From the IMG/VR virus record IMGVR_UViG_3300032087_006189: a DNA stretch of 64,000 nucleotides, one strand, 5' to 3'. Positions 1 through 63,735 of the stretch are shown piece after piece. A model generated the notes under the pieces. That model searched no databases, was not told the origin of the DNA, and was given only the letters and a program-made list of their open reading frames with translations. Every line of letters begins with the position of its first letter. Within the stretch, counting starts at the first letter, position 1. The DNA is from a virus. Both the position numbers and the translations under genes were made by a program.

Positions 1-1152
1 TGCTGCGCCAAGAATCGTCGTCTTCGTGTGATTGGAAACGAACTGCAGGGGATTGGTCTGGGTGGGAAGCTGTGCCGCCTTGAACGGCTTGAGAATCGCA
101 GCGCCGTACCCAGATGCCGACGCAGGGATGATCTCTTGGATTGAGTTCTTGCGGTCAACATTGTTTCGGATCTTGCGAGTCAGGGAATATGCCGTCTTCC
201 CCTTTGTCAGCTCTTCTGCGACAAAGTCTTCGACCCCGTAAAGGCGCTTGTTCGCGATTGACTGTCGGTCGTCTTCCTTCGCGCGCCCCTTACTGATGTC
301 CACCAGCTTCTTCGCAGAGAGAAGGAGTGCCTCTCCAGTGATGCTGGAAAACTCCTTTCCGAGCGCAGACTTCATGGTCTGCTTGCTGACTTCCGCACCC
401 TCAAAAGTAGCGCGGGTAAATTCTCGCGCAACGGCAAGGCTGGGCTGCTTGTACTTCGTCTTGTCCCTACGACCTTCAATGGCTTCGTGAAATTTGACGA
501 TGTCAGCTGGCTTGCTGTACCGCTTGTTGACCTCGTAGACCCCATCTCCGAGCGCAGCTCGAATCTTGGCGTCGTCGATTCCCATCGCGTTGAGAATGGG
601 GATTACTGGAATCTTACGAGTAGAAGATCCTCCGCTTTTGATCTGAAGGTAGATGAAGCCAACCTTCTTGGGGTCTCTTCTTTCGATGAAGATGTCGAAC
701 GAGCCCACCTTGCTACCTGCTGCCACATTCCACTTGGCAACCAAGTCCCCGTTCTGGGCCTCTGCGTGGTACGCGCCGGGGTTTAGGCGGAACACACTAT
801 CGAACTGCTTCTCATTTCCATCAACAATGAAGCTGTAGCGCGTGGTGATCTTGGGCAGCTTCCCCAAGGTTCTCTTTCGCTGATCAATGACCTTGCCGGT
901 TTCTTTTTCAATCAGCCGAAAATGTCCGACAATGTCAGGTCCCCAAGTGTTGCCATTGAGTCGTGCATCCAGCTGGCTGTCATAGTTCGCGGGATTGAAC
1001 TTGGCAGATCCTGTCGCAGAGTCGTCTTCGATCTCGAGCTTTGTCAGCTCAAGCCGGTGAACGTTTCCCTCGATCGGAAACTGCGAAGAAATGGCTTCTT
1101 TGGTCTTCTGGACCAGAAGCCTGTAGGACTCGAGGGGGTTCAGATTCGGCAT
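1..1152 (-). CDS. Multisubunit RNA polymerase beta-like subunit, N-terminal 384 aa (continues past window start)
   Basis: Translated manually, not in the ORF track. ATG at 1152 with GGAGA upstream; frame open to base 1. Contains GKLPKITTRYSFIVDGNEKQFDSVFRLNPGAY (cf. RpoB [32 protein letters not shown]), RKIPVIPILNAMG (cf. RKLPATIILRAL) and QTNPLQFVSNHTKTTILG (cf. DQNNPLSEITHKRRISALG), in RpoB order. Confidence 0.88.
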   Translation of the reverse strand, partial: MPNLNPLESYRLLVQKTKEAISSQFPIEGNVHRLELTKLEIEDDSATGSAKFNPANYDSQLDARLNGNTWGPDIVGHFRLIEKETGKVIDQRKRTLGKLPKITTRYSFIVDGNEKQFDSVFRLNPGAYHAEAQNGDLVAKWNVAAGSKVGSFDIFIERRDPKKVGFIYLQIKSGGSSTRKIPVIPILNAMGIDDAKIRAALGDGVYEVNKRYSKPADIVKFHEAIEGRRDKTKYKQPSLAVAREFTRATFEGAEVSKQTMKSALGKEFSSITGEALLLSAKKLVDISKGRAKEDDRQSIANKRLYGVEDFVAEELTKGKTAYSLTRKIRNNVDRKNSIQEIIPASASGYGAAILKPFKAAQLPTQTNPLQFVSNHTKTTILGAA

Positions 1153-1179
1153 GAAACTTCTCTCCGGAAACCGTCATAA
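1152..1179 (+). promoter_or_regulatory. Putative phage promoter TGAAA-N16-GTCATAA
   Basis: Copy 1 of a motif present at all five divergent junctions. Confidence 0.55.
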
Positions 1180-1219
1180 CTATAACAGCCGGAACATAGC
1201 CACCGGCATTGGAGTACAC

Positions 1220-1321
1220 ATGACCACGATGTTCATTCATTTGTCGTTCTGCAGCACCGATCCCGCCGATGAAGGGGGCAACGACCCCTTCGGCGGCACT
1301 GACCGCTTCGGAGAGTGGTAG
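1220..1321 (+). CDS. Small hypothetical peptide (33 aa, MTTMFIHLSF...FGEW)
   Basis: GGAG RBS at 1211, ATG at 1220, downstream of the promoter motif; below the ORF track cutoff. Confidence 0.3.
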   Translation: MTTMFIHLSFCSTDPADEGGNDPFGGTDRFGEW

Positions 1322-1413
1322 TGATTTCGACGATCTTCTGGATGGCTGCCATTGTAGCAGCCATCCAGAGTTCTTCGGACATCATCGACGATGAGATCAA
1401 TGCCGAAGAGTAA
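1315..1413 (+). CDS. Small hypothetical peptide (32 aa, hydrophobic N-half, acidic tail)
   Basis: GTG start; overlaps both neighbours; VVISTIFWMAAIVAAIQSSSDIIDDEINAEE. Confidence 0.3.
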   Translation: MVVISTIFWMAAIVAAIQSSSDIIDDEINAEE

Positions 1414-1735
1414 GAAAAGCAGCCTCCGGGCTCGGCTTCGTGCCGAGCTCGGGGCGCTGCCCGATCGACCACACGCTACTGTTTTACTCCCTAAAACTCA
1501 AGAGGAGGACACGCTACAGCACTACTGTCCGCTGATTGAGGAGAAGTGCGGACTGATGGAGTGCCGGGGGTGTGAGGCCATTCACAGCGCAATCTCCTAC
1601 GACGAAACCTGGGTCTGCTCAGAGTGCGTGGGAGAGGGCCTCAAGCCACATCCGTACTGGACTGCTGGAGATTGCGACAGCTGCGGGGACTACAGTAGCT
1701 TTCTGATCTTGGTGACAGATGCCGATACCGTATGA
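1391..1735 (+). CDS. Cys-rich hypothetical protein (several CxxC, putative Zn-binding); start may be 1400
   Basis: CRGC, CSEC and CDSC motifs. Confidence 0.6.
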   Translation: MRSMPKSKKSSLRARLRAELGALPDRPHATVLLPKTQEEDTLQHYCPLIEEKCGLMECRGCEAIHSAISYDETWVCSECVGEGLKPHPYWTAGDCDSCGDYSSFLILVTDADTV

Positions 1736-1970: not shown

Positions 1971-4021
1971 CCGACCTGTCTTCCGGGATCGGCCTGCGGA
2001 TTTCCGGCCGGCGCGGGGTTCTTCATCGCGTCGGCCGGGTTTGTCTGGGAGCCCCGGTCATTCATTAGCTGTACTACCAGCTTGTAGAGCGGCGGGTTTT
2101 CCATCTGCATCTGCTGGAGGGCCTGGTACATGGCGTCCTCACCCTGCTCTCTTTTTAGCGTGCGGAAATACGACGCCGCTCTTTGCGCGATGTACCGAAG
2201 GTCTACGCCGCCAGAACCAGGCTGAACTTGCGACTGCATCCCTGCCATTGCGGCTGGCATGCCTGCCTGGTTCGGGCCTTGCGCGTTTTCTTCGTACGCT
2301 GTGGCCCCTTCCGGAAGTCCTGGCGTCTGCTGGGCAGCATCTCCGCCCTGCTGCTGCTGCTGCTGCGGCTGTTGGGCCTGCGCAGCTTGCTGTTGCTGCA
2401 TCTGCTGAGCCTGGGCCTGCTGCTGCGCCTGCATCTGCTGCTGCTGCATTTCCATCTGGGCTTGCCCCTGCGCCTTGAGCGTGAGGGCTTGAGCTTTTGC
2501 CTGATACCGAGAAGTACGGAGCTGGGCCTCGCCCTGAATATCGGCAGCAGCGACCTGCATTCTGCGGTTGGACTGGAGCTGCTTCTTGATCTCCTCGCCC
2601 ATGCGCTCGGATTCCAGATCGAAGTTCTCTCCGATCTCCTCCATGAGGCGGCGATCCGAAATCTTCTGTGCCTGGTTGAGCTGCAGATAGAACATCGACC
2701 GCTGAAGGTCGTCTGCCATGCGGAACTTGTCGAACCGAGTGGGCACCTTCGGCCACTGCATGAACGATGCGATTTTGCCCATGATGAAGCGGTTCACGAG
2801 CTCATGGCGCTGCTTGTTGTACCCGAGGAACATGTTCTCGAGTGCGCGCAGCGAGGTGCTCGATCCACTCCACTGCAGGCCGCCGAAGATGAACTCGACC
2901 GGGATACCCGCACCCGCAAGCATCTGCTCTGCCAAAAGCCGCATCTCTTGGTACATCAGCAGGGCTCGACCCTGTCCGCCGATCTGCTGAAACCCAATGT
3001 TCACGGGCAAGACCGGGATGTAGTTGTGATCGCGCTTCCACATGTTGATCTCTTCATCAACGCGGCGCTTCCAGTTGGTCAGGTTGTACGACCCATACGG
3101 CCCTTCATTACCTCCCGTGTTCTGTCCCGGGAAGATCATCCGCATCGGGACGATGTTCTCCATCAAGACAGCCTCGTTCGCCTTCTTCATCACCTGCAAG
3201 TAGAACGCATCCTTGAGCAGGGGGAAGATCAGGGGAGTGCCCCAGCCCTGATCCTTCTGCGCGATGGTCGGGCGCTTGAGGTGGTAGAGGTTGTCCTCTG
3301 AGAACAGGAGCGACTTTCGCTTGCGCGCAGCTTCAAGAAACTCGATGGGCAGAGACTCGACCGTGTCCTTGTCCCCCATCTTGATGTCGTTGACGACACT
3401 ACGAGGGAGCCGGAAGTAGTACTTCGTGTGGCCGGTGATCTCGTTGTGCTTGATATCGATGTTCTCGGGGTTCCAGCGCACGAGACGGATCTTGCGGAAG
3501 CTCCGCATGTAGACATCGTGCTGCTTGGCGTAGCCCTGGTGTCCGCAGTCACACTTGTGGATGTAGAACTGTGAGTTGCGCCACTTGTAGCGGAAGCGGT
3601 TGGTCTTTGCGCGGTACCGGGTCTTGCAAGAGGAGCAGATCAGGTACTTCTCAAACGGCAGGAAGACCGAAACAAACGCGTTGCCGTAGACGAAGTAGTC
3701 GAGACCGACCTCGACTTGGAACGACCGCAGCTTTAGGTGGTCCTCTACCCCCTTGTAAAGCTTCTGCAGCTCCGGATCTTCGGTCTCGAATACCAGCGGA
3801 GTAACTGGATACTCTGCCATCTTCGAACATGCGGCGTTGATGACCGGATTCGTCAGGTAGTAGTACCGACACCACTTATGCAGCTCATGCTGGTTCGCTG
3901 GAAGAAACTGCTGAGAAACATCGAAGAAGGGGGACGGGTAGCGAATCCCGAAGCCGCGACCACCCTCGGCCGTGACTGGGCGCGGATTGAACCGGTTTAC
4001 TTCGCTTGTGATCACATTCAT
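1967..4021 (-). CDS. Portal protein with Cys-rich insertion and Gln-rich C-terminal extension
   Basis: YYLTNPVINAACSKMAEYP, DYFVYGNAF, LYHLK and GWGTPLI motifs typical of portal proteins; 684 aa. Confidence 0.72.
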   Translation of the reverse strand: MNVITSEVNRFNPRPVTAEGGRGFGIRYPSPFFDVSQQFLPANQHELHKWCRYYYLTNPVINAACSKMAEYPVTPLVFETEDPELQKLYKGVEDHLKLRSFQVEVGLDYFVYGNAFVSVFLPFEKYLICSSCKTRYRAKTNRFRYKWRNSQFYIHKCDCGHQGYAKQHDVYMRSFRKIRLVRWNPENIDIKHNEITGHTKYYFRLPRSVVNDIKMGDKDTVESLPIEFLEAARKRKSLLFSEDNLYHLKRPTIAQKDQGWGTPLIFPLLKDAFYLQVMKKANEAVLMENIVPMRMIFPGQNTGGNEGPYGSYNLTNWKRRVDEEINMWKRDHNYIPVLPVNIGFQQIGGQGRALLMYQEMRLLAEQMLAGAGIPVEFIFGGLQWSGSSTSLRALENMFLGYNKQRHELVNRFIMGKIASFMQWPKVPTRFDKFRMADDLQRSMFYLQLNQAQKISDRRLMEEIGENFDLESERMGEEIKKQLQSNRRMQVAAADIQGEAQLRTSRYQAKAQALTLKAQGQAQMEMQQQQMQAQQQAQAQQMQQQQAAQAQQPQQQQQQGGDAAQQTPGLPEGATAYEENAQGPNQAGMPAAMAGMQSQVQPGSGGVDLRYIAQRAASYFRTLKREQGEDAMYQALQQMQMENPPLYKLVVQLMNDRGSQTNPADAMKNPAPAGNPQADPGRQVG
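2340..2460 (-). repeat. CAG-rich poly-Gln tract in portal C-terminus
   Basis: Runs of ctgctg on the + strand encode MQQQQMQAQQQAQAQQMQQQQAAQAQQPQQQQQQ. Confidence 0.85.
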
Positions 4022-5076: not shown

Positions 5077-5867
5077 CTTCTTACTCCCGCCGAAGCTCGA
5101 TAAGAGAGCAACTGCTGAACTCCCTCAACTATCTTGTACGCGCAGATGTCATCTGCAGTTTCTTTGGCTGCCCGCCTACCGGTCAGTAGGTCTACCAGAG
5201 CTTTCTGTACTCCGGCAGTCGGGTACTTCTGGACTGTTCGGACCTTAGACCCGTCGTACCTTTTTTTGAGATCGGGACATGGCTCCAGCTTCATCAAGCT
5301 GTCTGCATTGTACCGATCGGTACAGTAGCTACAAAGGCCATCACGCTTCGGGCTTTCCTCATTTCCGCATTCGTCGCAGATCTGAGTCACACCTGAGATG
5401 AGCTCATTCACGAAGTCCAAAGGCTCGGGTACATACCAGATTCCAGAATCCAGGAGCTGCGCAGCGATGTACCGCTGAACCTCTTCTGCGTAGTCTGGAA
5501 CATTCGTGGCCGGTCCCAGCTCTCTTCGGATCTGATTGGCTACATCCACCGCCACCATCATCTCGCCAACAGAGTGGTCATCGAGATGGGAGACGGTAGG
5601 GATCTTGCCATTCAAGCCCTGACAGACAGTATGAAAGGTCTGCCAGCTATCCCAGAACCTGTCGTGATTCGCGACAGCAATCGCGGACAACAGCTTGAAA
5701 AATGCTGCACGAGAGATGTTGGCCTGGGTTCGATCTTCCACCGACTGCTTGATGACCGCAGGCTCCCATTCGAGTGCCTCCGGCCCAAACATAGCCAGAT
5801 AAGACTTGAGAAGAACGATCGGGTGCGTTTTCTCGTCTTTGAAGATTTCGGCCTCAGTAGCCGCCAT
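5073..5867 (-). CDS. Hypothetical protein with Zn ribbon (CDEC...CSYC)
   Basis: Likely start ATG 5867 (MAATEAE) overlapping the end of the upstream gene. Confidence 0.7.
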   Translation of the reverse strand: MAATEAEIFKDEKTHPIVLLKSYLAMFGPEALEWEPAVIKQSVEDRTQANISRAAFFKLLSAIAVANHDRFWDSWQTFHTVCQGLNGKIPTVSHLDDHSVGEMMVAVDVANQIRRELGPATNVPDYAEEVQRYIAAQLLDSGIWYVPEPLDFVNELISGVTQICDECGNEESPKRDGLCSYCTDRYNADSLMKLEPCPDLKKRYDGSKVRTVQKYPTAGVQKALVDLLTGRRAAKETADDICAYKIVEGVQQLLSYRASAGVRR

Positions 5868-6948: not shown

Positions 6949-6969
6949 TTTTTTGCTCCTAAAGAGGGA

Positions 6970-6996
6970 TGCAAGATTTCGAATACGCTGTCATAA
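6970..6996 (+). promoter_or_regulatory. Putative phage promoter TGCAA-N15-GTCATAA for the replication operon
   Basis: Copy 2 of the motif; ~34 nt before ATG 7030. Confidence 0.6.
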
Positions 6997-7029
6997 GCGT
7001 AATAGCACACCAAACGGAGGTTAGTGCAA

Positions 7030-7470: not shown

Positions 7471-8840
7471 TCAGACTGCCGATCCTGGAAGACGATGTCG
7501 CCTACCAAGGTCGGCATCTTTTTCTTCCAAAAACTCGTGTGAAGAAGAGTGTGATGGAAGGGATGCTGACATTCGGGGACGATCCCTCGGTTGGAAGCAG
7601 AGATCTGGTGGTTGACCACATCAATCACATCCAGGTCCCTCGCTACACACTGAGCGATGAGCAGTTGGATGCGCTGGGATGTGAGGTAAAGAAGATTCAG
7701 CCCACATTTGAGCGCATCTCTCTGAACGCAAAATCCACCTTCTCGATTCGCCCGAATCAGAGAGAGGCGTGGGAGCATCTTCGGGAAGCCGATCGAGGGG
7801 TCTTGAACTTAGCCTGCGGCAAGGGAAAGACTGTCCTCGGCTGGCTAAAGGCTGCGCACGAGAAGGTTCCGACCCTCGTTGTTAGCCCGCAGAGAGCGCA
7901 CCTCGACAACTGGCTTGCGGAGCTCAACGAGTTCTTCGACCATGACGGAGAGGTGGGCTGGATTCAGGGAAAGAGATTCGAGTACGAAGCAGACATCTGC
8001 ATGTCTACCGTGCAGACCCTCGCTGCTCGCGCGGAAGAAGGGAGACTGCCGCCGGACTTCTACAGTCGATTCGGTCTCGTCATCTACGACGAGTGCCACA
8101 TCATGGCTGCGGACTTCTTCTCGAAGGCAAGTGCCGTGGGCTCAGGCATCCGCCTGGGCCTTACGGCCACGCCGACAAGAACAGACAAGTGTGAGGGGGT
8201 CTTCTTCTCTCACTTAGGTCCTGTGTTCTACAGCGACATCACGCAAGACCTGACCCCGACTGTCTTTGTTCTGGAGACCGGGGTGTTCTATTCGGATGCC
8301 GAACGGCGCTCGATGCTGGACAAGACCGGGCAGATGAACATTGGTCGCCTGCACAAGACGCTGGCGGCAAGTGCGGACAGGAACGTGTTGATCCAAGAGA
8401 TCATCGACCAGTGCCTGGCGAGAAAGAGAACGATCTACGCGCTGTCCCACGGGCCAGAGCACATCGAAGAAATGCAGAAGCAAAACCCCGGCAGCACGGT
8501 GATTCATGGTGGGACGAAGTCTTCCGACCGCCTTGAGCTATTGAACGCAGGGAGCTTGGTGTTTGCATCCATCGGAGTGGGCGCAGCAGCCTACAATCGG
8601 AAGGATTTAGACACGCTTATTTTGATGACTCCGTTCGCTGCACGGGCTCACTCAGCCATCACATTCCAGCAGAGTGTGGGGAGGATCCTCCGGGCCTTGC
8701 CCGGAAAGAGGGATCCATGGGTGTTCTTGCTGATGGACAAGTCTATCGACACCTGCCGGGGAATGATTCACTCGTTGATCCGGAAGTCAAAAGAGAGCGG
8801 ATATCGAGTGATAACGAAATGGAACTGGAAAGACATATAG
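7467..8840 (+). CDS. Superfamily 2 DExH helicase (UvsW/ResIII-like)
   Basis: Walker A LACGKGKT, DECH, LGLTATP, motif VI QSVGRILR. Confidence 0.92.
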   Translation: MIRLPILEDDVAYQGRHLFLPKTRVKKSVMEGMLTFGDDPSVGSRDLVVDHINHIQVPRYTLSDEQLDALGCEVKKIQPTFERISLNAKSTFSIRPNQREAWEHLREADRGVLNLACGKGKTVLGWLKAAHEKVPTLVVSPQRAHLDNWLAELNEFFDHDGEVGWIQGKRFEYEADICMSTVQTLAARAEEGRLPPDFYSRFGLVIYDECHIMAADFFSKASAVGSGIRLGLTATPTRTDKCEGVFFSHLGPVFYSDITQDLTPTVFVLETGVFYSDAERRSMLDKTGQMNIGRLHKTLAASADRNVLIQEIIDQCLARKRTIYALSHGPEHIEEMQKQNPGSTVIHGGTKSSDRLELLNAGSLVFASIGVGAAAYNRKDLDTLILMTPFAARAHSAITFQQSVGRILRALPGKRDPWVFLLMDKSIDTCRGMIHSLIRKSKESGYRVITKWNWKDI

Positions 8841-8849
8841 GAGGTTCGA

Positions 8850-14022: not shown

Positions 14023-14029
14023 ATGAACT

Positions 14030-14057
14030 GAGGGGCGGCCCTTCGGGGCTGCCCCTC
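14030..14057 (+). terminator. GC-rich cUUCGg hairpin without U-tract (attenuator or stability element)
   Basis: gaggggcggccc-ttcg-gggctgcccctc. Confidence 0.65.
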
Positions 14058-14073
14058 CTATGCGGAGATTGTT

Positions 14074-50795: not shown

Positions 50796-51031
50796 TACGT
50801 CAAGGCCGCGGACAGCAGGGGCAGGAACTCGGCAGCAAAGGCCTCGGAGTGCAGTCTTCCCAATTCTATCGTACGGCGTTGGAGTTGTCGAGTGCCGGTC
50901 CTGCCCTCAAGCACTACCAGTAGCAGCTCTTTTTCTCGCAAAAGACGGGCTTCTTCTTTGCGCAAGAGGGCATCGACCTGCGCTCCCAAAGACGCGACCA
51001 TAGAGGCATACGGGCCTGCTGCTTCAGCCAT
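50795..51031 (-). CDS. Hypothetical coiled-coil protein
   Basis: One-base stop/start overlaps on both sides. Confidence 0.55.
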   Translation of the reverse strand: MAEAAGPYASMVASLGAQVDALLRKEEARLLREKELLLVVLEGRTGTRQLQRRTIELGRLHSEAFAAEFLPLLSAALT

Positions 51032-51861
51032 CAGAACGCATCCATGTAGTCTTTGTACTTTTTGGCAATCCGGTTTTTGACCTGAGAAACCTTCGACGGG
51101 CTCCAGCCAAGATTCTTTGCGATCTGACCCATGTTCTCGGTCTTTGGCTTCCCATTCTTGCCAAACAGATATTCGAAGACTGCCTGCTCCTCCAGGGTCA
51201 GGTCATAGGGCAGCATTTCGACGATTTCTCGGTGAACTGAGGAAGTCTCCTCAAATGGATTCACATCGAATCCGCCCTCACCGAGTGTAGGAATCGCAAA
51301 GATGTCGGGGCGCACCTCTTTTGCGAGCCGCTCGACCTTCTTGACGCTGATCTTCATTCGATCTGCGATCTCAATGGAGGTCGGATCTCTATTGAGCTCT
51401 TCGCGCAGGATGTCTTTGGTGCGCTGATACTCGCCGATCTTGTTCGCCTGAGACTCCACGATTCTTGTGAAGTTCTGGTGCTTCTTCACATACCGGTTCA
51501 GGCCACGGAGGTTGTTCGTGACATGAGTGGAAATCACCGCGCCCTTGGCGGGGTCGTACTTGCGCAGAGCCTTCACAGTCAGTGACCGCGCCTCTGCCTC
51601 GACCGTGGGGCGGTACATGCGCGGAGGCGTATGTCGGTTGACCTGAGACGTGATGACCGGATTGAGCGCAGTCAAGAGGGGCTGCAGCTTCTCAGGGTCC
51701 TCATTGGAAGTCTTCCACTGGCGCCACAGATCGATCTCCTTGGCCGCCTTGCCCGTGTACGGGCGAAACTTGCCAGTCTTGTAGTCCTTGGTCCCCCAGG
51801 TTTTCGGAAACTGGTAGGGGTCCTTGGCTGCAATTTTGAGGAGTCGATCCTTGACGGCCAT
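51031..51861 (-). CDS. Sigma70-family sigma factor, group 3 (FliA/SigF-like)
   Basis: Region 2 KALRKYDPAKGAVISTHV; region 3 EELNRDPTSIEIADRMKISVKKV; region 4 LTLEEQAVF...MGQIAKNLGWSPSKVSQVKNRIAKK. Confidence 0.88.
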   Translation of the reverse strand: MAVKDRLLKIAAKDPYQFPKTWGTKDYKTGKFRPYTGKAAKEIDLWRQWKTSNEDPEKLQPLLTALNPVITSQVNRHTPPRMYRPTVEAEARSLTVKALRKYDPAKGAVISTHVTNNLRGLNRYVKKHQNFTRIVESQANKIGEYQRTKDILREELNRDPTSIEIADRMKISVKKVERLAKEVRPDIFAIPTLGEGGFDVNPFEETSSVHREIVEMLPYDLTLEEQAVFEYLFGKNGKPKTENMGQIAKNLGWSPSKVSQVKNRIAKKYKDYMDAF

Positions 51862-57834: not shown

Positions 57835-60800
57835 CAGCCATCCTCTTTCTTTTCTGGGTCAGGAATAAACCCGGCCACATACGAGATGCCCGTCTTGTTG
57901 AGCGTCTCTGCAGTGAGCTGCACCTGCTCAGAGGTTTTTCGGACATTTTGATCTGTTTGATTTAGCAAATTGGCCATTATCTGCTGCTCGGTCTGTCCTC
58001 CGTCAAGCAAAGAGCGCTTGTCCGTGTCGAGCCCGAGGTCGGCTGCCTTGAGCGCACCAATTGCTGAGCCAAGCTTTTTAGCATCAACCTTAATGCTGCT
58101 GCCGGCAATGCTGCCGCCCTGCTCCTTGACAAGCTTTCGGACTTGGTCCTGGCTTAGGCCCATATCCGTCAACTCGGACATCGTCAGCCCGTCGCGGGCC
58201 GCTCGACTAACCGCGGTAGCAGCCTCTACCCCAAATCCCAGCATCTGGGACTCAACATCATCCGCGCCGGTTGCCACAAACCCTTCTTGTGCGAGCTTTT
58301 GAATGCTGCGCTGCAGGGCAGAGAAGTTGGTCTCTGCCTTCCCGGAGTCAAACTGCCGCTCAAGCCCACTCTCCCTAAGGGCGGCCATACCCAGGCTCGA
58401 CAACTGCTCATCCACTCGCCGCTGGGCTTCCTTGTTGACTAGATTTGAGGCAGCAGTTCCAATCTTCTTAAGGAGGCCTGCATCTACTCCTGATGTTCGT
58501 CGTTCGGACGCATTCCTGCCCGTCTTGTGCTGCATGAGAACTTCGAGATCTCTTACATCCTGAGCAGAGATTTTGAGCCCGAATCTCTTGTTCAGTTTCT
58601 TTGCAGCGGCGTCTGGGTCGTTTCCTGCGATGATGTGATCAATCTCTTTTTGGCTTTTTTCATACTTCTGCAAGAGAGCGGAGCTTTCTCCTCCCTGCTC
58701 AATTCGATCGAATGCTTCCTCGAGGTTGCTATCAACCGCAAATCGTGCCGCAGAAAATAGGGCACCGCTTACCCCACCGAATGCGACATTTTGACCTACT
58801 GACCCTATTTTCTCTATAGAGCCAAAAGCAGCGAAAGGAGAGCTAAAGTCCATCGTGAAGTCAGTCGCGCCTCTCGTACCAAACAGTCTGGAGAGATCTT
58901 GTTGGTCGGAACGGGTAGAATCTACCGAAAGCCCGGCATCTTTCTTGTTTTTGAAGTATTCGGCAAGAAGCTGTTCGGTCCGCTCACGATCTTCCGGGGC
59001 AGCTGATTTCAGGGCAATAGCGGCTGCCCGCTCTTCGTCGATACCGATATTTGTTGCGCTGGCTGCGCCGAGGGGGCTCACAATAGAAAGTGCAGATTTT
59101 GCAGCGACATGCTTGAGCCTGCTGCTCGGATCTGCTTGAAACATTATCTGCCTCAGGGCCCCAGAAATATCTGCGTCTGCAGCAGACTTACCAGAGCCTG
59201 CCGCAAAAACTGCGTTTGCTGCCGATGTACCGCGCACGCGAGACACCATGTCATCGGAGACAGATGGAAGAGCCTGCCCAATCATCCCTCGCCGAGCAGC
59301 TTCCCCAATACCCATGGTCCTGCCAGAGCCGGCGCGACCCATCATGGCAGACATGACAGCCTCATCAAGCGCCTCTTGAGTGGTCCCGATTGTCACGCGA
59401 GTACTTCCTTTCCCCAGCATAAACCTCTCGACATCTTGGCTGCTCTCTATGACCCCTCGGTAGTACGAAGAAGCGGCGTCTGTGAGGGGATTGAAGGCAT
59501 CGGAGATGGTTCCCCCAATACGCTGCGCGGCTCCTGACAGGGTCGCGTTTTCCCGAAGTTCTGCTGCCCTCTGGCTTGCCAAGATCTCTTGTTTTAGCGC
59601 CGACAATCTTTGTCCACGGCCGCTCTTTAGTTCTTGCAGCTTACGAACTGCACGACGATCCATGTTGAACTGGGTCTCAGCAACCAGCTGGAAGAGGTCT
59701 TGATCTTCTCCGGCACCCTCTCCAAACATCTCTTCGGTGATCGATCGAACCATACCAAACAGAGCTTCCTGTCCCTGATCTGACTCGAGCATAGACTCCA
59801 TGATGTCTTGGCGACGGGCCGTAAAGGATGCCTGGCCAATTCGGGAGCCACGCTTCCCTCCCCCGATGTCCATCAGCTCGTTTCTAGACAGGTTGCCTTG
59901 CGCCATACGGCGCAGGATTCCTGCATCGATCTCTCCTGTGAACCTCCCAGACTTATCCGTTGCTCCTGCAGCGAGGAGCATTCCAGTTCCCAGTGCTCCT
60001 GACAATCCTCCCATCGTGCCAGCAAGAGTCTGTTGGGCCATCATCTGCGCAGCCTCAAGCGGGGTTGATGCCCCCGTCATGTCCATCATCTCTTCTGCGC
60101 TCATCTGACCAGTGCGGATGGCGTTCATAAACTCGGCGGTCTTTGCGGTGATCATCCCTGCACCGGCACGACCGGACATCTGAGCTCCGCGGGTCATCCC
60201 TGCGCCAGTTCTCTGCATCTGCGCAAACTGCTGAGAGCTCATGCCAAAGCCGCGCATTAGAGTCATGTTGGCGGTGTTGCCCATGACGTCCTGTGCGGAG
60301 TAAAAACCGGACCCCTTCATATCTTTGAAGATCTGCCCGGCTTCCTCCATTGAGGTGCCCAGAGAGCGAGCCATCTGGTGCATGGTCTTACCGAGCTCGG
60401 TCACCTTCTTTGCCAGCTTCTCGGCGTCCTGCACTCCCTGGTGCATCCCCATTTCGGTGAATCGCTCTGTCGCGCGAAGCGCGTCGGACATCGAAACAAA
60501 CGGGTTGTTCGCGTCGATAGCTCGCACACCACGCTGCAGCGTCATCAGATCGTTTTGGCTGAATCCTCGGCCAGTTGTTGGGTCTCCCGAAGCGTTGACA
60601 AACTGCATGTTGCCAAACATGTTTCCGACGGCATTCGCGTTTTGCACTCCCGTATTTGCAATACTCAGTCCAGCGCCTGCGGCCATAAGCCCAAGACCGA
60701 TCGGCCCGCCGGCTAGGGCCATTGGGCTGGCCATGCCGAGAGAAGCTCCTGTACCTAAGGCGGTTGCTCCGGTAAGGACTCCCAAAGAGGTGGCTCCGCC

Positions 60801-61055
60801 GGCCCCAGCCGCACCACCACCAATTGCGGCAATACTAGGAAAAAACCCGGCGGCAATGCCCGCTCCAGAAGCAAGCATTCCCGCTGCACCCGACATTCCC
60901 GTCGCAAGGCCAAGACCGCCCGTTATCAACCGATTGCCAGCGTACGCCCCACCAGTAGCCTGGGCGTGGCCAGTCGGAGCGTAGCTGAAGGTGGGTGGGT
61001 AGTGCGATGAGCCCATATTGGGCTGCATCGGCATCATTCCGGGCTGCGGATACAT
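57834..61055 (-). CDS. Tape-measure-like protein (~1073 aa)
   Basis: Ala/Gly/Met/Gln-rich and helical, with hydrophobic Gly-rich segments; upstream of the hub genes; ATG 61055 with AGGTG RBS. Confidence 0.6.
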   Translation of the reverse strand: MYPQPGMMPMQPNMGSSHYPPTFSYAPTGHAQATGGAYAGNRLITGGLGLATGMSGAAGMLASGAGIAAGFFPSIAAIGGGAAGAGGATSLGVLTGATALGTGASLGMASPMALAGGPIGLGLMAAGAGLSIANTGVQNANAVGNMFGNMQFVNASGDPTTGRGFSQNDLMTLQRGVRAIDANNPFVSMSDALRATERFTEMGMHQGVQDAEKLAKKVTELGKTMHQMARSLGTSMEEAGQIFKDMKGSGFYSAQDVMGNTANMTLMRGFGMSSQQFAQMQRTGAGMTRGAQMSGRAGAGMITAKTAEFMNAIRTGQMSAEEMMDMTGASTPLEAAQMMAQQTLAGTMGGLSGALGTGMLLAAGATDKSGRFTGEIDAGILRRMAQGNLSRNELMDIGGGKRGSRIGQASFTARRQDIMESMLESDQGQEALFGMVRSITEEMFGEGAGEDQDLFQLVAETQFNMDRRAVRKLQELKSGRGQRLSALKQEILASQRAAELRENATLSGAAQRIGGTISDAFNPLTDAASSYYRGVIESSQDVERFMLGKGSTRVTIGTTQEALDEAVMSAMMGRAGSGRTMGIGEAARRGMIGQALPSVSDDMVSRVRGTSAANAVFAAGSGKSAADADISGALRQIMFQADPSSRLKHVAAKSALSIVSPLGAASATNIGIDEERAAAIALKSAAPEDRERTEQLLAEYFKNKKDAGLSVDSTRSDQQDLSRLFGTRGATDFTMDFSSPFAAFGSIEKIGSVGQNVAFGGVSGALFSAARFAVDSNLEEAFDRIEQGGESSALLQKYEKSQKEIDHIIAGNDPDAAAKKLNKRFGLKISAQDVRDLEVLMQHKTGRNASERRTSGVDAGLLKKIGTAASNLVNKEAQRRVDEQLSSLGMAALRESGLERQFDSGKAETNFSALQRSIQKLAQEGFVATGADDVESQMLGFGVEAATAVSRAARDGLTMSELTDMGLSQDQVRKLVKEQGGSIAGSSIKVDAKKLGSAIGALKAADLGLDTDKRSLLDGGQTEQQIMANLLNQTDQNVRKTSEQVQLTAETLNKTGISYVAGFIPDPEKKEDG

Positions 61056-61081
61056 CAAATATCACCTGTTTGGCGGCATAA
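61055..61081 (+). promoter_or_regulatory. Putative phage promoter TCAAA-N15-GGCATAA
   Basis: Copy 3 of the motif; ~27 nt before ATG 61108. Confidence 0.55.
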
Positions 61082-61107
61082 TACCACTAACGGCACAAGG
61101 AGGTATC

Positions 61108-61497
61108 ATGCTGTTTTTGTTCACTGTGGGCACCGTTGTGGTTGCAGGATTGTCGGAGGCTAAAAAGGCCTGGGACGATGAGGCCAAGGAGCTTGAAGAG
61201 ACTGCCGATCTTCGTGATCGGATCTTTCACCGAGGTGGCTGGGACGAGGTCGAGAATCCTGATTGTACATTTCTCGGACTTCAGCCACTGACCCTCTACA
61301 AGCTTCGCCATGGGTTCATGACTTTGTACGAGGTCCAGAAGCACGGAAAGCCCGAAGGCGCAGAAGAGATCACGCTGCTACTGACTGCGGATGAGATTCT
61401 GATTCTGCAGCAGCACGGCTTCGACAGCGAAGCTGGTCTCTTCGTTTTGGGCTCTGCGTACAAGATGGACGCAGAGAGGAGGGAGCACGCCGCTTGA
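61108..61497 (+). CDS. Hypothetical protein with hydrophobic N-terminus
   Basis: AAGGAGGT RBS; MLFLFTVGTVVVAGLS. Confidence 0.7.
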   Translation: MLFLFTVGTVVVAGLSEAKKAWDDEAKELEETADLRDRIFHRGGWDEVENPDCTFLGLQPLTLYKLRHGFMTLYEVQKHGKPEGAEEITLLLTADEILILQQHGFDSEAGLFVLGSAYKMDAERREHAA

Positions 61498-61510
61498 CGG
61501 CGTGCTCCCT
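61480..61510. terminator. 13-bp hairpin between convergent genes
   Basis: agggagcacgccg-cttga-cggcgtgctccct; the upstream stop codon lies in the loop. Confidence 0.7.
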
Positions 61511-61520
61511 TCGGGGAACC

Positions 61521-61718
61521 TCACGTTAGCCTGCACGGACCCATTGGATCGGGCTTGAGGTTCTCAGAGAACTTCCCAGTTTCTTTAGCCACAATAAATG
61601 ACTTGATGATCGCGCGCTCGAACTTCGCCAGCGGCTCCGCACCCTGGCCGCGGAACCACTTCTCGAAGGCATCAATCTGGGCATCCGCGCGAGCCAAAAT
61701 TTCCTTTCTTTCGGTCAT
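61521..61718 (-). CDS. Hypothetical protein (65 aa, MTERKEIL...)
   Basis: GGAG RBS then ATG 61718; protein-like helical sequence. Confidence 0.55.
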   Translation of the reverse strand: MTERKEILARADAQIDAFEKWFRGQGAEPLAKFERAIIKSFIVAKETGKFSENLKPDPMGPCRLT

Positions 61719-61720
61719 AA
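61694..61720 (+). promoter_or_regulatory. Putative phage promoter CCAAA-N15-GTCATAA
   Basis: Copy 4 of the motif; ~18 nt before the ligase ATG. Confidence 0.55.
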
Positions 61721-61737
61721 CAACTCCGGAGGACAAC

Positions 61738-63036
61738 ATGGAATACCTGACACTCTATAGCACTGCCCGTACTGGAGCAGTGCGCGTTTGGGAAATCGCT
61801 GTCGATGAGGACCGGGTAATCACCCGCTTCGGGCAGCTCGATGGAAAGATGCAGGAAGTCGTGGACTACGGCACTGCGAAGAATGTCGGGCGGAGCAATG
61901 AGATCTCCGCCGAAGAAGATGCAGAAAACATGGCGCGTCGCATGGCGCGTCAGAAGATGTTGAAGGGCTACCGAAAGACCCTGGTTCAAGAATCTGACGG
62001 CTTCAATCCGTTCACGGAGGAGGGGCTGCCCAGTGAGCTGTCCTTCTACAAGCCACAGAACTCCATGAGCAAGAAGATGGAGAAGCTGGTTGAAGCGGAA
62101 GAGGCGTGGGCGCTCCGTAAGTACGATGGCGAAATGATGGTCATCGTGAAAGATCTGGACGGAATCGTAGACATCTACAGCCGGCGCATGCTCAGACATC
62201 ACCACAATGAGGAGGACACCGCTTGGCGAGTTCGATTCAACCACCTTGTGTGTGAGATCGAAAACAATGAGCGCATCCCTTCGGGGACTGTTCTTCTCGG
62301 CGAGATGGTTGCCTCTCCTCAGGAAGACAGCCGCTGGTATGTCGCGAAGGTCTTGAAGAGCCTGACTGACCGGGCAATAGATCTGCAGGAGGAGCACGGG
62401 CGTCTGCACTTCATCTGCTGGGATGTGGCCTGGTCAGGCGGAGAGCAGTTGATCGGCAAAGAATCTGTCGGTGTCCGATTGGATTACTGCAGGCTGTACG
62501 CAGGAACCTATCTCCGAGCCCCAGAGATGTTCTTCACCGGACATCCCTTCGACAGCGTCGACGCTCTCCGAGATCTTGCAGCTCGCAAGGGATGGGAAGG
62601 CTTCGTTGTGATCGATCCAGAGGCTACCTACGGAGACAAGGCGTTCAATCTGCGCGGCAAGCCTGACCGTCCCGCGGGTGCCTGTAAGTTGAAGCCGTGC
62701 TTCGAGGACGACTTCATCGCCTACTTCGATCCTGAAGATGGGCACGGCAAGTACGGCCGCGGCAAGTACACGGGAAAGCTCGGTGCGGTCAGCCTGTACC
62801 AGCACACCTCACTCGGCGGGCTCCAGTACATCTGCGAATGCGGCAACGGGTTCACGAAGGAGTTCATCGAGAACAACTCTGACCCCTCGGACTGGCCGAA
62901 GGTGATCGAAGTCAAGTACGAAAGCCGGACGTACAAGGATGCCGATGGGCACGGTACGAACGCACTTCAGTTTCCGCGATTTGTCCGCGTTCGCGAGGAC
63001 AAGGACCCGGACGAGTGCATCAACCCGGAGCTGTGA
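61738..63036 (+). CDS. ATP-dependent DNA ligase with N-terminal WGR-like domain
   Basis: GGAGG RBS, ATG 61738; KYDG, YSR, LLGEM, WD, EGFVV, KLKP, GNGF, FPRF; N-terminal VWEI...VITRFGQLDG. Confidence 0.93.
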   Translation: MEYLTLYSTARTGAVRVWEIAVDEDRVITRFGQLDGKMQEVVDYGTAKNVGRSNEISAEEDAENMARRMARQKMLKGYRKTLVQESDGFNPFTEEGLPSELSFYKPQNSMSKKMEKLVEAEEAWALRKYDGEMMVIVKDLDGIVDIYSRRMLRHHHNEEDTAWRVRFNHLVCEIENNERIPSGTVLLGEMVASPQEDSRWYVAKVLKSLTDRAIDLQEEHGRLHFICWDVAWSGGEQLIGKESVGVRLDYCRLYAGTYLRAPEMFFTGHPFDSVDALRDLAARKGWEGFVVIDPEATYGDKAFNLRGKPDRPAGACKLKPCFEDDFIAYFDPEDGHGKYGRGKYTGKLGAVSLYQHTSLGGLQYICECGNGFTKEFIENNSDPSDWPKVIEVKYESRTYKDADGHGTNALQFPRFVRVREDKDPDECINPEL

Positions 63037-63038
63037 GT

Positions 63039-63067
63039 AAGGGGGCCTTTCGGGGCCCCCTTCTTTT
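63039..63067. terminator. UUCG-loop terminator between convergent genes
   Basis: aagggggcct-ttcg-gggccccctt-ctttt. Confidence 0.8.
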
Positions 63068-63443
63068 AGCCCCCAAAGATGAAAGCTTCCTTCGGGTGCC
63101 CCGCTTCTTCCTTCGCGGCCTCTGCGGCCTTGAACTCGATCTCCCGGAGTTCGGCCTGCTGTGCGCGCTCTTCTTCGGCCTGGGCACGGATGGTATCGAT
63201 CTCCTGTGACCGGGCGTCGATTGCCTCATCTGTGAGGACATCGCCGTCCACCAGCAGGGAGCGGATGGACGCAAGCGTGGTGTCGTGTGACTCCACCGCC
63301 TGTCCTATCACGGCGTCGTTGTCGAACAGACGACGGACTTCCATGATGAGAAGATCAATCCCTTCAGACTGAATCTTCTCCATCGTAGCGATTCTTTGCT
63401 CGAGCTCTTCTACTCTGGCTTCGAGTCTTTCAGTACGGGTCAT
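63066..63443 (-). CDS. Hypothetical acidic coiled-coil protein
   Basis: TGATG coupling; 125 aa. Confidence 0.7.
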   Translation of the reverse strand: MTRTERLEARVEELEQRIATMEKIQSEGIDLLIMEVRRLFDNDAVIGQAVESHDTTLASIRSLLVDGDVLTDEAIDARSQEIDTIRAQAEEERAQQAELREIEFKAAEAAKEEAGHPKEAFIFGG

Positions 63444-63709
63444 CAGTCAATTTCCTCGCTAAGAATGGTACGGACTTCCTTCTCCATCTCGGCAACGCCG
63501 TCCTCCAGTTCCTCTACAATCTCCTCGATGAGATCGGTCGAAACTGGTGCGCCTTCGCACGAGATCTGGGCCAAAGGCTCAGGAACCCCATCACGAGGCA
63601 AGAACCGCGTGCGGAGAATCTGAGCAAGGGTAGACTGCACTGCAGCCCGCCCCTTCAGCTCCTTCACCTCTGTAATCACGGACCCCACAGTCTTCGATGC
63701 TGCTGGCAT
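63443..63709 (-). CDS. Hypothetical protein
   Basis: AAGGAG RBS before ATG 63709 (MPAASK). Confidence 0.65.
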   Translation of the reverse strand: MPAASKTVGSVITEVKELKGRAAVQSTLAQILRTRFLPRDGVPEPLAQISCEGAPVSTDLIEEIVEELEDGVAEMEKEVRTILSEEID

Positions 63710-63735
63710 GAAAAAACTCCTTTTTTCTGCCATAA
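63709..63735 (+). promoter_or_regulatory. Putative phage promoter TGAAA-N15-GCCATAA
   Basis: Copy 5 of the motif; immediately upstream of the candidate ncRNA. Confidence 0.55.

What the first reader, a model, noticed from the sequence alone, without database searches (positions are those of the whole stretch)
1152..63735. Sigma28-like bipartite motif at every divergent strand switch (5 of 5)
Seen on the + strand: TGAAA-N16-GTCATAA (1152-1179), TGCAA-N15-GTCATAA (6970-6996), TCAAA-N15-GGCATAA (61055-61081), CCAAA-N15-GTCATAA (61694-61720) and TGAAA-N15-GCCATAA (63709-63735). Each precedes a plus-strand unit: small genes, the replication operon, the ligase region or the candidate ncRNA. Known: FliA/sigma28 promoters are TAAA-N15-GCCGATAA, and this window encodes a FliA-like sigma. 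Inference: this is the cognate promoter class for the phage sigma and drives non-structural genes. Caveats: GNCATAA alone also occurs inside genes (e.g. ~34820, ~60682) without the AAA box, and parts of four copies overlap start codons of the divergent genes.
Basis: partly seen in the sequence, partly recalled or inferred. Interest (0 to 1): 0.8.

Follow-up and report, generated by a model that had tools for sequence, protein, structure and literature searches.

The report
Phage-specific sigma-28-like early promoter class
The five motif copies are real promoters of a class shared by a whole group of large marine phages; they switch on the non-structural genes and are most likely read by the phage's own sigma factor and RNA polymerase, not by the host's.

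Summary
Observation confirmed. All five TnAAA-N15/16-GNCATAA copies lie at the stated coordinates. A matrix trained only on six related contigs, without this genome, ranks them 1, 2, 3, 5 and 6 in the 78.5-kb record (19-24 bits; 0.03 such hits expected by chance).

In five related genomes there are 117 copies against about 4 expected, and 110 lie on one strand. About 74 sit directly upstream of co-oriented genes, many in +|+ junctions, which settles the direction. The box spacing is fixed, and a T-R step lies 7-8 nt after ATAA. Site 5 is not a protein-gene strand switch: it drives a conserved ~87-nt RNA that begins exactly at the predicted start.

The geometry matches sigma-28 promoters within 1 bp, but the -10 box lacks their CGA core.

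The phage sigma (window 51031-51861) is a divergent sigma-70-family protein and not a FliA orthologue. Its -35-reading helix is FliA-type (SKVSQ).

Sigma, one fused beta-beta' RNA polymerase and the motif co-occur in all eight contigs. The cultured relative Salmonella phage Arash has the same architecture (GGTATAA, 1 forward and 40 reverse), and its virions contain the polymerase and sigma.

No transcript start sites were available. The scan found this system before on other DNA (e1-5632067, e1-5736523 and others).

The parts
1152..1187 (+). Promoter copy 1: -35-like TGAAA 1152-1156, -10-like GTCATAA 1173-1179, predicted start A1187 (C-A step). Precedes the small plus-strand ORFs (33-aa ORF at 1220, then 1391/1556-1970). 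It lies back to back with the start of the fused RNA polymerase gene (ATG at 1152-1150, minus strand).
   Evidence: 19.1 bits with the matrix trained without this genome. Conserved in relatives, e.g. G001 ...ctaaat-N15-GCCATAAgtataacag.
6970..7004 (+). Promoter copy 2: TGCAA 6970-6974, GTCATAA 6990-6996, predicted start A7004. It heads the 14.5-kb replication module 7024-21491 (SF2 helicase, UDG-family protein, DnaB, family A DNA polymerase, RecA-like protein, Cas4-like nuclease, RusA).
   Evidence: 21.0 bits. Ten homologous loci keep TG[CT]AG-N15-GTCATAA at the same place.
61055..61089 (+). Promoter copy 3: TCAAA 61055-61059, GGCATAA 61075-61081, predicted start A61089. The 19-nt leader carries AAGGAGG and leads to the 129-aa gene 61108-61497.
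   Evidence: 23.0 bits. Homologues in L003-L006 read G[GT]CATAA(g)TATAG.
61694..61728 (+). Promoter copy 4: CCAAA 61694-61698, GTCATAA 61714-61720, predicted start G61728, giving a 10-nt leader to the ATP-dependent DNA ligase gene 61738-63036. The CAT of the -10 box is the start codon of the divergent 65-aa gene 61521-61718, and the spacer and -35 box lie in its first codons.
   Evidence: 22.1 bits. Homologues shown.
63709..63743 (+). Promoter copy 5: TGAAA 63709-63713, GCCATAA 63729-63735, predicted start G63743. It lies between two minus-strand genes and drives a non-coding RNA. In G001, G002 and G004 the -10 box at this place is GGTATAA.
   Evidence: 23.8 bits, the top score in the genome.
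63743..63829 (+). Conserved ~87-nt structured RNA transcribed from copy 5. Nucleotide conservation in five genomes begins at the predicted start and ends after a 9-bp hairpin, which is followed by a U-run in this genome and in G002. G-U pairs favour the plus strand.
   Evidence: 23 predicted pairs, 4 with compensatory changes. No tRNA and no Rfam family. Single-sequence folding is not significant (z -0.65).
8787..8822 (+). Weaker candidate copy (TCAAA...GTGATAA 8808-8814) 36 nt before the UDG-family gene. It lies inside the last codons of the helicase gene (V-I-T-K-W-N-W), so protein coding may explain its conservation.
   Evidence: 15.8-16.6 bits. Nine relatives have canonical GTCATAA here.
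51031..51861 (-). Gene of the phage sigma-70-family factor (276 aa), the proposed reader of the motif. It lies among tail and hub genes on the strand that lacks the motif. Its N-terminus reads RLLKIAAKD and its region 4.2 helix reads SKVSQVK.
1..1152 (-). First 384 codons of the 2117-aa single-chain beta-beta' RNA polymerase (record G000 3930-10283), the proposed core enzyme. The NADFDGD catalytic motif is present.
   Evidence: (Rpb2_6 at 217 bits, Rpb1_2 at 112 bits, and others).

Best explanation
The motif is a real bipartite promoter of the sigma-70-family type, specific to a clade of roughly 110-190-kb phages.

Consensus, counted from the G of the -10 box: T(-20) n A A A w (-15), a 15-nt spacer with an A/T patch at -6/-5, G-k-C-A-T-A-A (0 to +6), then a T-R step at +13/+14.

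If transcription starts at that purine, ATAA occupies -11 to -8 and the A-rich box occupies about -34 to -30. Within 1 bp this is the layout of sigma-28 promoters.

The promoter fires the plus-strand, non-structural units. In this window these are the small genes, the replication module, a 129-aa gene, the ligase and an ~87-nt RNA. In relatives they are long arrays of small early-type genes and tRNAs.

The most likely reader is the phage's own divergent sigma factor bound to the phage's single-chain beta-beta' RNA polymerase. Both are probably made late, carried in the virion and injected, so that these promoters are the first to fire.

Shown here: existence, conservation, orientation, spacing and gene association of the motif, and co-occurrence with the sigma and polymerase genes.

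For: (1) Held-out test. A matrix from six relatives ranks the five sites 1, 2, 3, 5 and 6 of the genome; the null expectation is 0.03 hits.

(2) Abundance and strand. There are 117 sites of 12 bits or more in five genomes, against 0-8 (mean about 4) in random sequence, and 110 are on one strand. Raw GNCATAA counts: G001 0 forward and 32 reverse, G002 34 and 7, G006 5 and 44, with flat controls.

(3) Direction. 45 sites lie between two co-oriented genes and 29 in divergent junctions. Only about 6 are not upstream of a co-oriented gene, and these are the ncRNA promoter and the site-4 homologues. 80 of the 110 lie in the 6.7% of the DNA that is intergenic. 66 of 109 lie 8-60 nt (nearly all 17-60) before a start codon.

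(4) Fixed spacing. The AAA box peaks at spacer 15 (34% of sites; 24% each at 14 and 16), against a background of 0.8%.

(5) Start site. T at +13 in 79 of 117 sites and a purine at +14 in 116 of 117. Conservation of the site-5 RNA begins exactly there, while the 7 nt between the box and the start vary.

(6) Geometry equals that of the P. aeruginosa sigma-28 promoter, (-36)TCTAAAG(-30) and (-15)GCCGATAA(-8) (PMC12784957).

(7) Sigma. It has regions 2-4. hhalign against E. coli FliA gives 95.5% probability. Its helix SKVSQ aligns with FliA SRVSQ, which holds the S and Q that the paper reports as base-specific -35 contacts. The residue that contacts -12G in sigma-28 (R80) is Asn here, and the promoter has C at -12.

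(8) One sigma, one fused RNA polymerase and the motif are present in all eight contigs examined.

(9) Salmonella phage Arash (polymerase 30% identical, sigma gp10 hhalign E 1.5e-26). It has GGTATAA 1 forward and 40 reverse (control 2 and 5), 32 of them intergenic, with the same T(+13)G(+14) and a box at -21 to -15. The sites lie on the strand opposite its sigma and polymerase genes. The -35 box reads TCCAwAA, and its sigma recognition helix differs. The specificity therefore follows the phage across unrelated hosts.

(10) Arash virion mass spectrometry found the polymerase beta subunit as the most detected protein, plus beta' and sigma Gp10 (PMC10585845).

(11) The sigma shares the N-terminal K-x-[AS]-[ASG] tag found on 16% of minus-strand against 4.3% of plus-strand proteins (p 1.4e-6).
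Against: The sigma and polymerase genes themselves lack the motif and sit in the late-looking block. The model therefore needs virion delivery, which is supported only by proteomics of a 30%-identical relative. In that study 116 proteins, nearly half the proteome, were called virion-associated, and the authors themselves raise carry-over as a possibility.

By overall sequence the sigma is no closer to FliA than to SigA or RpoS. Region 4 on its own finds no sigma in the PDB.

In site 4 and in the candidate at 8808 the motif overlaps coding sequence, so part of its conservation there may be protein-driven.

Vibrio phage D69 has both genes but shows no enrichment of either -10 box.

About a third of the divergent junctions in relatives lack a hit, although some of these may be errors of my gene caller.
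Confidence: 0.62

Rival explanations
1. The motif is a promoter, but a host sigma factor on host RNA polymerase reads it. Candidates are the host's flagellar sigma-28 or a housekeeping sigma with an unusual consensus. The phage sigma would then serve another gene class, for example the virion genes.
For: The layout and the -35 box are sigma-28-like. GGTATAAG preceded by T resembles an extended -10 box, TGnTATAAT. The sigma and polymerase genes lie on the strand without the motif, which is what one would expect if they were late functions. The host of the marine clade is unknown.
Against: The same -10 box and architecture occur in a Salmonella phage and in marine phages, whose hosts differ. It matches neither enterobacterial sigma-70 nor sigma-28: GNCATAA/GGTATAA lacks the CGA core, and the position after ATAA is T in only 1 of 40 Arash sites, although T-7 is a key sigma-70 base. 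Sigma-70-consensus promoters are fewer than in shuffles (3 against 6.7, and 1 against 3.4). No other enriched motif was found that the phage sigma could read instead. Relying on scarce, FlgM-controlled sigma-28 for early genes would be a poor strategy (inference).
Confidence: 0.17
2. The motif is a promoter read by the phage beta-beta' polymerase with a specificity factor other than the recognised sigma, or by the core enzyme alone, as in the sigma-less multisubunit polymerases of phiKZ and AR9.
For: Known phage multisubunit polymerases use no canonical sigma (PMC7598289; PMC7824862). Weak helix-turn-helix hits exist elsewhere in the relatives.
Against: A bipartite signal with a fixed 15-nt spacer and an ATAA box at -11 to -8 is the signature of sigma-70-family recognition. 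The sigma's -35-reading residues fit the A-rich box. Between this clade and Arash, sigma regions 2-3 and the -10 box are both conserved, while region 4 and the -35 box both differ.
Confidence: 0.12
3. The motif is not a promoter. It could be a binding site for a repressor or replication protein, a by-product of start-codon context (TTATGNC on the other strand), or chance.
For: GNCATAA is the reverse complement of a start-codon context, and it is the start codon itself in site 4 and at 20794. The total count of GNCATAA in the window is below expectation.
Against: Most copies lie between co-oriented genes, where no divergent start codon exists. Further points are the fixed upstream AAA box, the T-R step, the constant 17-60-nt distance to ribosome-binding sites, the position in front of tRNAs and of an RNA whose conservation starts at +1, and the held-out ranking.
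Confidence: 0.04

Closest known systems
Bacterial sigma-28 (FliA/SigD/WhiG) promoters, TAAA-N15-GCCGATAA; P. aeruginosa fliC promoter (-36)TCTAAAG(-30) and (-15)GCCGATAA(-8) (PMC12784957)
   Same: A-rich -35 box, a 15-nt spacer counted to the G, ATAA at -11 to -8, and no conserved T at -7. The two -35-contacting residues of the sigma (S...Q in SRVSQ) are kept in the phage sigma as SKVSQ.
   Different: The -10 box is one base shorter and lacks the CGA core: C instead of G before ATAA, or T in some copies and in Arash. The -35 core is TnAAAw rather than TAAAG. There is an extra A/T patch 5-6 nt upstream of the G. The sigma is far below the FliA family cut-off and has Asn where sigma-28 has the -12G-contacting Arg. 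The target genes are phage early and replication genes, not flagellar genes.
Salmonella phage Arash (OQ632216; PMC10585845): RNA polymerase Gp206 and Gp216, sigma Gp10
   Same: Homologous polymerase (30% identity) and sigma (hhalign E 1.5e-26). The sigma lies in the same place, after the hub/cell-wall-hydrolase gene. The promoter architecture is the same: a box at -21 to -15, GG[T/C]ATAA and T-G at +13/+14. The promoters lie on the strand opposite the virion, polymerase and sigma genes. The polymerase and sigma were detected in purified virions.
   Different: The -10 box is invariably GGTATAA(G). The -35 box reads TCCAwAA. The sigma lacks the 35-residue N-terminal leader and has a different recognition helix. 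The polymerase is split into two proteins rather than one chain. The paper does not mention promoters; the Arash motif was found here.
Virion RNA polymerases that start early transcription: N4 vRNAP, and the phiKZ and AR9 virion multisubunit polymerases (PMC7598289)
   Same: The proposed logic is the same: a polymerase made late, packaged, injected and specific for phage early promoters.
   Different: N4 vRNAP is a single-subunit enzyme that reads hairpin promoters. The phiKZ and AR9 enzymes are split, highly diverged and sigma-less. A survey of jumbo phages found either a polymerase or sigma factors, but no sigma in the polymerase-encoding group (PMC7824862). Here a near-canonical beta-beta' enzyme is paired with a true sigma-70-family factor and a two-box promoter.
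Phage sigma factors that redirect host RNA polymerase (T4 gp55 at TATAAATA; SPO1 gp28 and gp33/34)
   Same: A phage-encoded sigma-70-family protein defines a private promoter class for one temporal gene class.
   Different: Those sigmas use the host core enzyme and act on middle or late genes. Here the phage also encodes the core enzyme, and the class it serves is the non-structural, early-looking one.

Membership tests
Sigma-70-family bipartite promoter (general) | Two conserved boxes with a fixed spacer | tested here: met
   The AAA box peaks at 15 nt from the G of GNCATAA (34%; 24% each at 14 and 16; background 0.8%). Information profile.
Sigma-70-family bipartite promoter (general) | Oriented with, and shortly upstream of, the transcribed gene | tested here: met
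   74 of about 80 intergenic sites lie upstream of a co-oriented gene, 45 of them in +|+ junctions. 66 of 109 lie 8-60 nt (nearly all 17-60) before the start codon.
Sigma-70-family bipartite promoter (general) | Transcription starts 6-8 nt downstream of the -10 box | not testable with these tools
   No RNA run holds the sequence. Indirect support: the T-R step at +13/+14, and the site-5 RNA is conserved from exactly that base.
Sigma-28 / FliA-dependent promoter class | -35 box TAAA | tested here: inconclusive
   The consensus is T-n-A-A-A-w (T 68, A 94, A 112 and A 84 of 117). It is A-rich at the same position, but the register differs by one base from TAAAG.
Sigma-28 / FliA-dependent promoter class | -10 box GCCGATAA with the CGA core | tested here: not met
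   The box is G-k-C-ATAA, with C (or T) directly before ATAA in place of G. The 8-mer GCCGATAA does not fit the observed box at any of the aligned sites.
Sigma-28 / FliA-dependent promoter class | Read by a FliA orthologue | tested here: not met
   TIGR02479 scores 41.9 bits against a cut-off of 189.6. RpoD_Cterm scores nearly the same. The PDB profile search ranks SigA and RpoS above FliA. All 48 homologues are metagenomic sequences, several of them on contigs of over 100 kb.
Sigma-70 protein family (the phage sigma, 51031-51861) | Regions 2, 3 and 4 in order | tested here: met
   Sigma70_r3 at 1.6e-10, above its cut-off; r4 is weak at 17.8 bits. hhalign against FliA covers residues 92-263 at 95.5% probability. 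Profile hits to SigA and RpoS span regions 2-4. Pfam region 2 is not detected as such.
Virion-delivered RNA polymerase system (N4 or phiKZ logic) | Polymerase and specificity factor present in the virion | not testable with these tools
   Only by analogy: Arash virion mass spectrometry (PMC10585845). In this phage, the genes lie in the virion block and the sigma carries the N-terminal tag common on that strand.
Bacterial-type multisubunit RNA polymerase core (2117-aa protein) | Beta and beta' domains with the NADFDGD catalytic loop | tested here: met
   Rpb2 domains 2, 6 and 7 are followed by Rpb1 domains 2, 3, 4 and 5 in one chain. The invariant residues N1402, A1403, D1404, D1406, G1407 and D1408 are present.

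The most novel reading that the evidence does not exclude
A widespread and almost unstudied lineage of large phages, from marine phages to Salmonella phage Arash, injects a complete transcription start-up kit. The kit is a near-canonical bacterial-type RNA polymerase without alpha or omega subunits, here as a single chain, together with a true sigma-70-family factor. This holoenzyme reads a private sigma-28-geometry promoter to launch all non-structural genes independently of the host polymerase. It would be the first virion-borne sigma-dependent multisubunit polymerase with a defined two-box promoter.
Probability: 0.45. Interest if true: 0.85.

Novelty: new variant of a known kind. Interest (0 to 1): 0.68.

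Why it matters
The result gives a defined promoter consensus, with predicted start sites, for a phage lineage that encodes both a bacterial-type RNA polymerase and a sigma factor. A survey of jumbo phages did not find that combination: phages there had either a polymerase or sigma factors (PMC7824862).

Because Salmonella phage Arash shares the architecture, and has the polymerase and sigma in its virions, the model can be tested at the bench now.

If it holds, it is a minimal sigma-dependent multisubunit transcription system: one or two polypeptides plus sigma, with no alpha subunit. Such a system is useful for studying how sigma factors read promoters, and as an orthogonal expression system.

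The two related pairs, SKVSQ with TnAAA and the Arash helix with TCCAwAA, offer a natural experiment in -35 specificity.

For annotation, the matrix marks the operon starts, tRNA units and ncRNA units of these uncultured marine phages.

Tried and rejected
(1) RNA evidence. No RNA holder was listed for window 60500-64000. All 20 holders are DNA metagenomes (seawater, estuary, marine), so no start-site mapping was possible and read laying was not used.

(3) Region 4 of the sigma on its own against the PDB returned no sigma, only chance hits.

(4) A second promoter class for the minus-strand genes was sought. K-mer enrichment upstream of 103 minus-strand genes returned only the reverse complement of the plus-strand motif and A/T runs. 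The sigma-70-consensus scan found fewer sites than in shuffles. Extended -10-like boxes on the minus strand at sites 1 and 3 cannot be separated from the A/T-rich discriminator of the plus-strand promoter.

(5) My first gene caller, which chose ORFs by length, gave a noisy strand map in this 56% G+C DNA. I replaced it with a codon-usage caller.

(6) Reading the motif on the minus strand as a phiKZ-like TATG late promoter or as a leaderless start was considered. I dropped it once the +|+ junction copies fixed the direction.

(7) A T7/SP6-like single-subunit promoter (the ACACTAT resemblance at site 5) was considered and rejected. It is not conserved in relatives, and the genome has no single-subunit polymerase.

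(8) Rfam at gathering and at E-value thresholds, and ARAGORN, found nothing for the site-5 RNA. A pattern search for more copies of it found only the four relatives already known.

(9) Vibrio phage D69 shows no enrichment of either GNCATAA or GGTATAA. Its own motif was not sought.

(10) The paper on polymerase-encoding Caudovirales (PMC7481178) mentions neither sigma factors nor promoters. Literature searches for GGTATAA or for a virion sigma found no description of this promoter class.

Full report
**What the window is.** The window is bases 9132-73131 of a 78,495-bp IMG/VR virus record. The record is linear and CheckV estimates it 42% complete. Relatives are contigs of 107-165 kb. The DNA occurs in seawater and estuary metagenomes.

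A codon-usage gene map shows that most genes lie on the minus strand. These include:
- a portal-like protein, baseplate and tail proteins, and several giant proteins;
- a 2117-aa single-chain beta-beta' RNA polymerase whose first 384 codons end at window 1152;
- a 276-aa sigma-70-family protein at 51031-51861.

The plus-strand islands are:
- small ORFs at 1220-1970;
- an 18-gene replication module at 7024-21491 (helicase, UDG-family protein, DnaB, family A polymerase, RecA-like protein, Cas4-like nuclease, RusA);
- a 129-aa gene at 61108-61497;
- an ATP-dependent ligase gene at 61738-63036.

GNCATAA by itself is not over-represented: 9 in the window against 13.7 expected, and there are no further copies in the rest of the record. 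The case therefore rests on context.

To avoid circularity I trained a 37-column matrix on 149 sites from six related contigs, leaving this genome out. The five sites score 19.1-23.8 bits and rank 1, 2, 3, 5 and 6 of all positions on both strands. Markov-1 random genomes give 0.03 hits of 18 bits or more.

Four of the sites sit at the four protein-coding divergent junctions. The fifth lies between two minus-strand genes.

**Is it a family?** In four relatives and this record, anchoring on GNCATAA alone (116 occurrences on the dominant strand) reveals three features that were not built into the search:
- T at -20 and A at -18, -17 and -16 (A at -17 in 90 of 116);
- an A/T patch at -6/-5;
- T at +13 and a purine at +14.

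After refinement there are 117 sites of 12 bits or more, against 0-8 in random sequence, and 110 are on one strand. Raw strand counts are striking: 0 forward and 32 reverse in G001, 34 and 7 in G002, and 5 and 44 in G006, with flat controls. The AAA box peaks sharply at a 15-nt spacer.

In the relatives, 45 sites lie between two co-oriented genes and 29 in divergent junctions. The handful that do not precede a co-oriented gene are the homologues of site 5 (ncRNA) and of site 4 (overlap with the small divergent gene).

80 of the 110 sites lie in the 6.7% of the DNA that is intergenic. 66 of 109 lie 8-60 nt (nearly all 17-60) before a start codon, with a ribosome-binding site in between. In G006 the motif also precedes tRNA genes.

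The strand that carries the virion, polymerase and sigma genes has 329 gene junctions and only five sites. Those five lie in local small-gene regions, not before the virion, polymerase or sigma genes.

**Start site.** No RNA data exist. Two indirect lines agree on the purine at +14:
- the pyrimidine-purine step there;
- site 5, where an ~87-nt segment is nearly identical in five genomes whose flanking proteins are only 55-75% identical.

At site 5 conservation begins at that very base. The seven bases between ATAA and the start vary. Conservation ends after a 9-bp hairpin, which is followed by a U-run in this genome and in G002.

The consensus fold has four compensatory pairs and several G-U pairs that fit only the plus strand. 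There is no Rfam or tRNA match. Single-sequence folding is not significant.

**Comparison with sigma-28.** With +14 as the start, ATAA occupies -11 to -8 and the A-rich box occupies -34 to -30. The P. aeruginosa fliC promoter in the sigma-28 open complex is (-36)TCTAAAG(-30) and (-15)GCCGATAA(-8) (PMC12784957). The layouts therefore agree within one base.

The -10 box, however, lacks the CGA core: C or T stands where sigma-28 promoters have G at -12.

The phage sigma is not a FliA orthologue. It scores 41.9 bits against a cut-off of 189.6. A profile search of the PDB ranks SigA and RpoS above FliA. Its 48 homologues are all metagenomic sequences, several on contigs of over 100 kb.

Even so, hhalign against E. 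coli FliA gives 95.5% probability, and the recognition helices align as SKVSQV and SRVSQL. The paper reports S224 and Q228 of the P. aeruginosa protein as the base-specific -35 contacts. The only S...Q pair four residues apart in that helix is the S and Q of SRVSQ, and both are kept in the phage family (S invariant, Q in 12 of 14 members). Group 1 and 2 sigmas have E and R at the two serine positions (alignment).

The Arg that contacts -12G in sigma-28 (R80, at the W434 position of sigma-70) is Asn in the phage sigma. This fits the changed -12 base, but the link is an inference.

**Who reads it?** Each of the eight contigs examined has one recognisable sigma, one fused polymerase and the motif.

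The strongest argument comes from a cultured distant relative, Salmonella phage Arash. Its polymerase is 30% identical. Its sigma Gp10 is a clear family member (hhalign E 1.5e-26) and sits in the same gene order, after the hub/cell-wall-hydrolase gene.

A blind k-mer search of Arash upstream regions returned GGTATA, GTATAA and TATAAG as the top words. GGTATAA occurs once on the forward and 40 times on the reverse strand of the full record, against a control of 2 and 5. Of the 40 copies located in the 180 kb that I analysed, 32 are intergenic and most lie 18-60 nt before genes. The sites have T at +13 and G at +14 and a box at -21 to -15, and they lie on the strand opposite the sigma and polymerase genes.

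The -10 box is thus shared: GG[T/C]ATAA. GGTATAA also appears in the marine clade at site 5 of G001, G002 and G004. The -35 box differs (TCCAwAA), and so does the Arash recognition helix. Specificity therefore travels with the phage across unrelated hosts and co-varies with the sigma domains.

The Arash box is not a Salmonella sigma-70 or sigma-28 promoter. T follows ATAA in only 1 of 40 sites.

The Arash paper reports the polymerase beta subunit as the most detected virion protein, with beta' and sigma Gp10 also present. It suggests a role in early transcription but does not mention promoters (PMC10585845).

**Proposed mechanism.** The polymerase and sigma are made with the virion proteins, packaged and injected. 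The holoenzyme then fires the TnAAA-N15-GNCATAA promoters in front of the early, replication, tRNA and ncRNA units.

In this phage, the positions of both genes in the virion block support this. So does the sigma's N-terminus (RLLKIAAKD), which matches a K-x-[AS]-[ASG] tag found on 16% of minus-strand and 4.3% of plus-strand proteins (p 1.4e-6). This lead came from earlier notes of the scan and I tested it only coarsely.

What transcribes the minus strand remains open.

At the four divergent junctions the -35 box or spacer overlaps the ribosome-binding site or start codon of the opposite gene. The two transcription units therefore cannot be initiated independently. Whether this acts as a switch is speculation.

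**Limits.** Nothing here is experimental for this clade.

**Relation to the rest of the scan.** Follow-up agents have already described the same system on other genomes. One was a 165-kb river phage with TAAA-N15-GGTCATAA; others were similar. They reached the same reading and named the same closest known system. I reached Arash and the promoter model independently before reading those notes.

Noticed in passing
window 63743-63829 (+): Conserved ~87-nt structured RNA with a 9-bp terminal hairpin (CACCCAG...CUGGGUG) and no Rfam family.
   Followed up: partly
L017:3930-10283 (-), ending at window 1152: Single-chain beta-beta' RNA polymerase of 2117 aa with an intact NADFDGD motif. There is one copy in each of the eight related contigs, and no alpha subunit was noticed. 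The conserved N-terminus NLNP..a.r.L.qKTKEA resembles the tag on virion-strand proteins.
   Followed up: partly
N-termini of minus-strand proteins, e.g. window 51861 (sigma), 52345, 5076 and 64401: A leader of the form hydrophobic-x-x-E/D-hydrophobic-x-K-x-[AS]-[ASG] occurs within the first 28 residues of 58 of 363 minus-strand proteins and 12 of 279 plus-strand proteins in five genomes. It may be a capsid-targeting or protease-processing signal.
   Followed up: partly
Salmonella phage Arash OQ632216 (L077-L085): There are 40 GGTATAA copies on one strand of the full record and 1 on the other. The consensus is TCCAwAA-N14-tGGTATAAGtAa..TG, in front of non-structural genes. The Arash paper does not report this.
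   Followed up: yes
window 48595-48624 (-): Strong intrinsic terminator (13-bp stem, 11 G-C pairs, then TTTTTGTTT) after the 630-aa gene 48642-50534. A similar hairpin stands at the same place in G002 and G004.
   Followed up: no
window 61474-61510: An 11-bp perfect hairpin (GGAGCACGCCG cttga CGGCGTGCTCC) lies between the convergent genes 61108-61497 (+) and 61521-61718 (-), without a U-run. It may be a bidirectional or phage-specific terminator.
   Followed up: no
window 1180-1188 and 61078-61086, minus strand: Extended -10-like boxes (TGtTATAGT and TGgTATTAT) abut the reverse complement of the plus-strand -10 box, about 20 nt upstream of the ATG of the polymerase gene and of the 1073-aa gene. 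The one before the polymerase gene is conserved in G000-G004. They may be overlapping, mutually exclusive divergent promoters, or only the A/T-rich discriminator of the plus-strand promoter.
   Followed up: partly
window 1138: The window has G where the record laid as G000 has A. This is the only difference in 64,000 bases and is synonymous (Asn) in the polymerase gene.
   Followed up: no
G006 (oriented) 112137 and 140134: In a relative, the promoter motif stands directly before tRNA-like sequences (GTCGAGTAGCTCAATGGCAGAGCA...), so the class also drives tRNA genes. This window has no tRNA.
   Followed up: no
window 20796 (+): The 325-aa ORF 20514-21491 probably starts at the ATG at 20796, which has a ribosome-binding site (GAAAGGGG). 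The lone minus-strand GCCATAA at 20794-20800 is simply that start codon read backwards.
   Followed up: no
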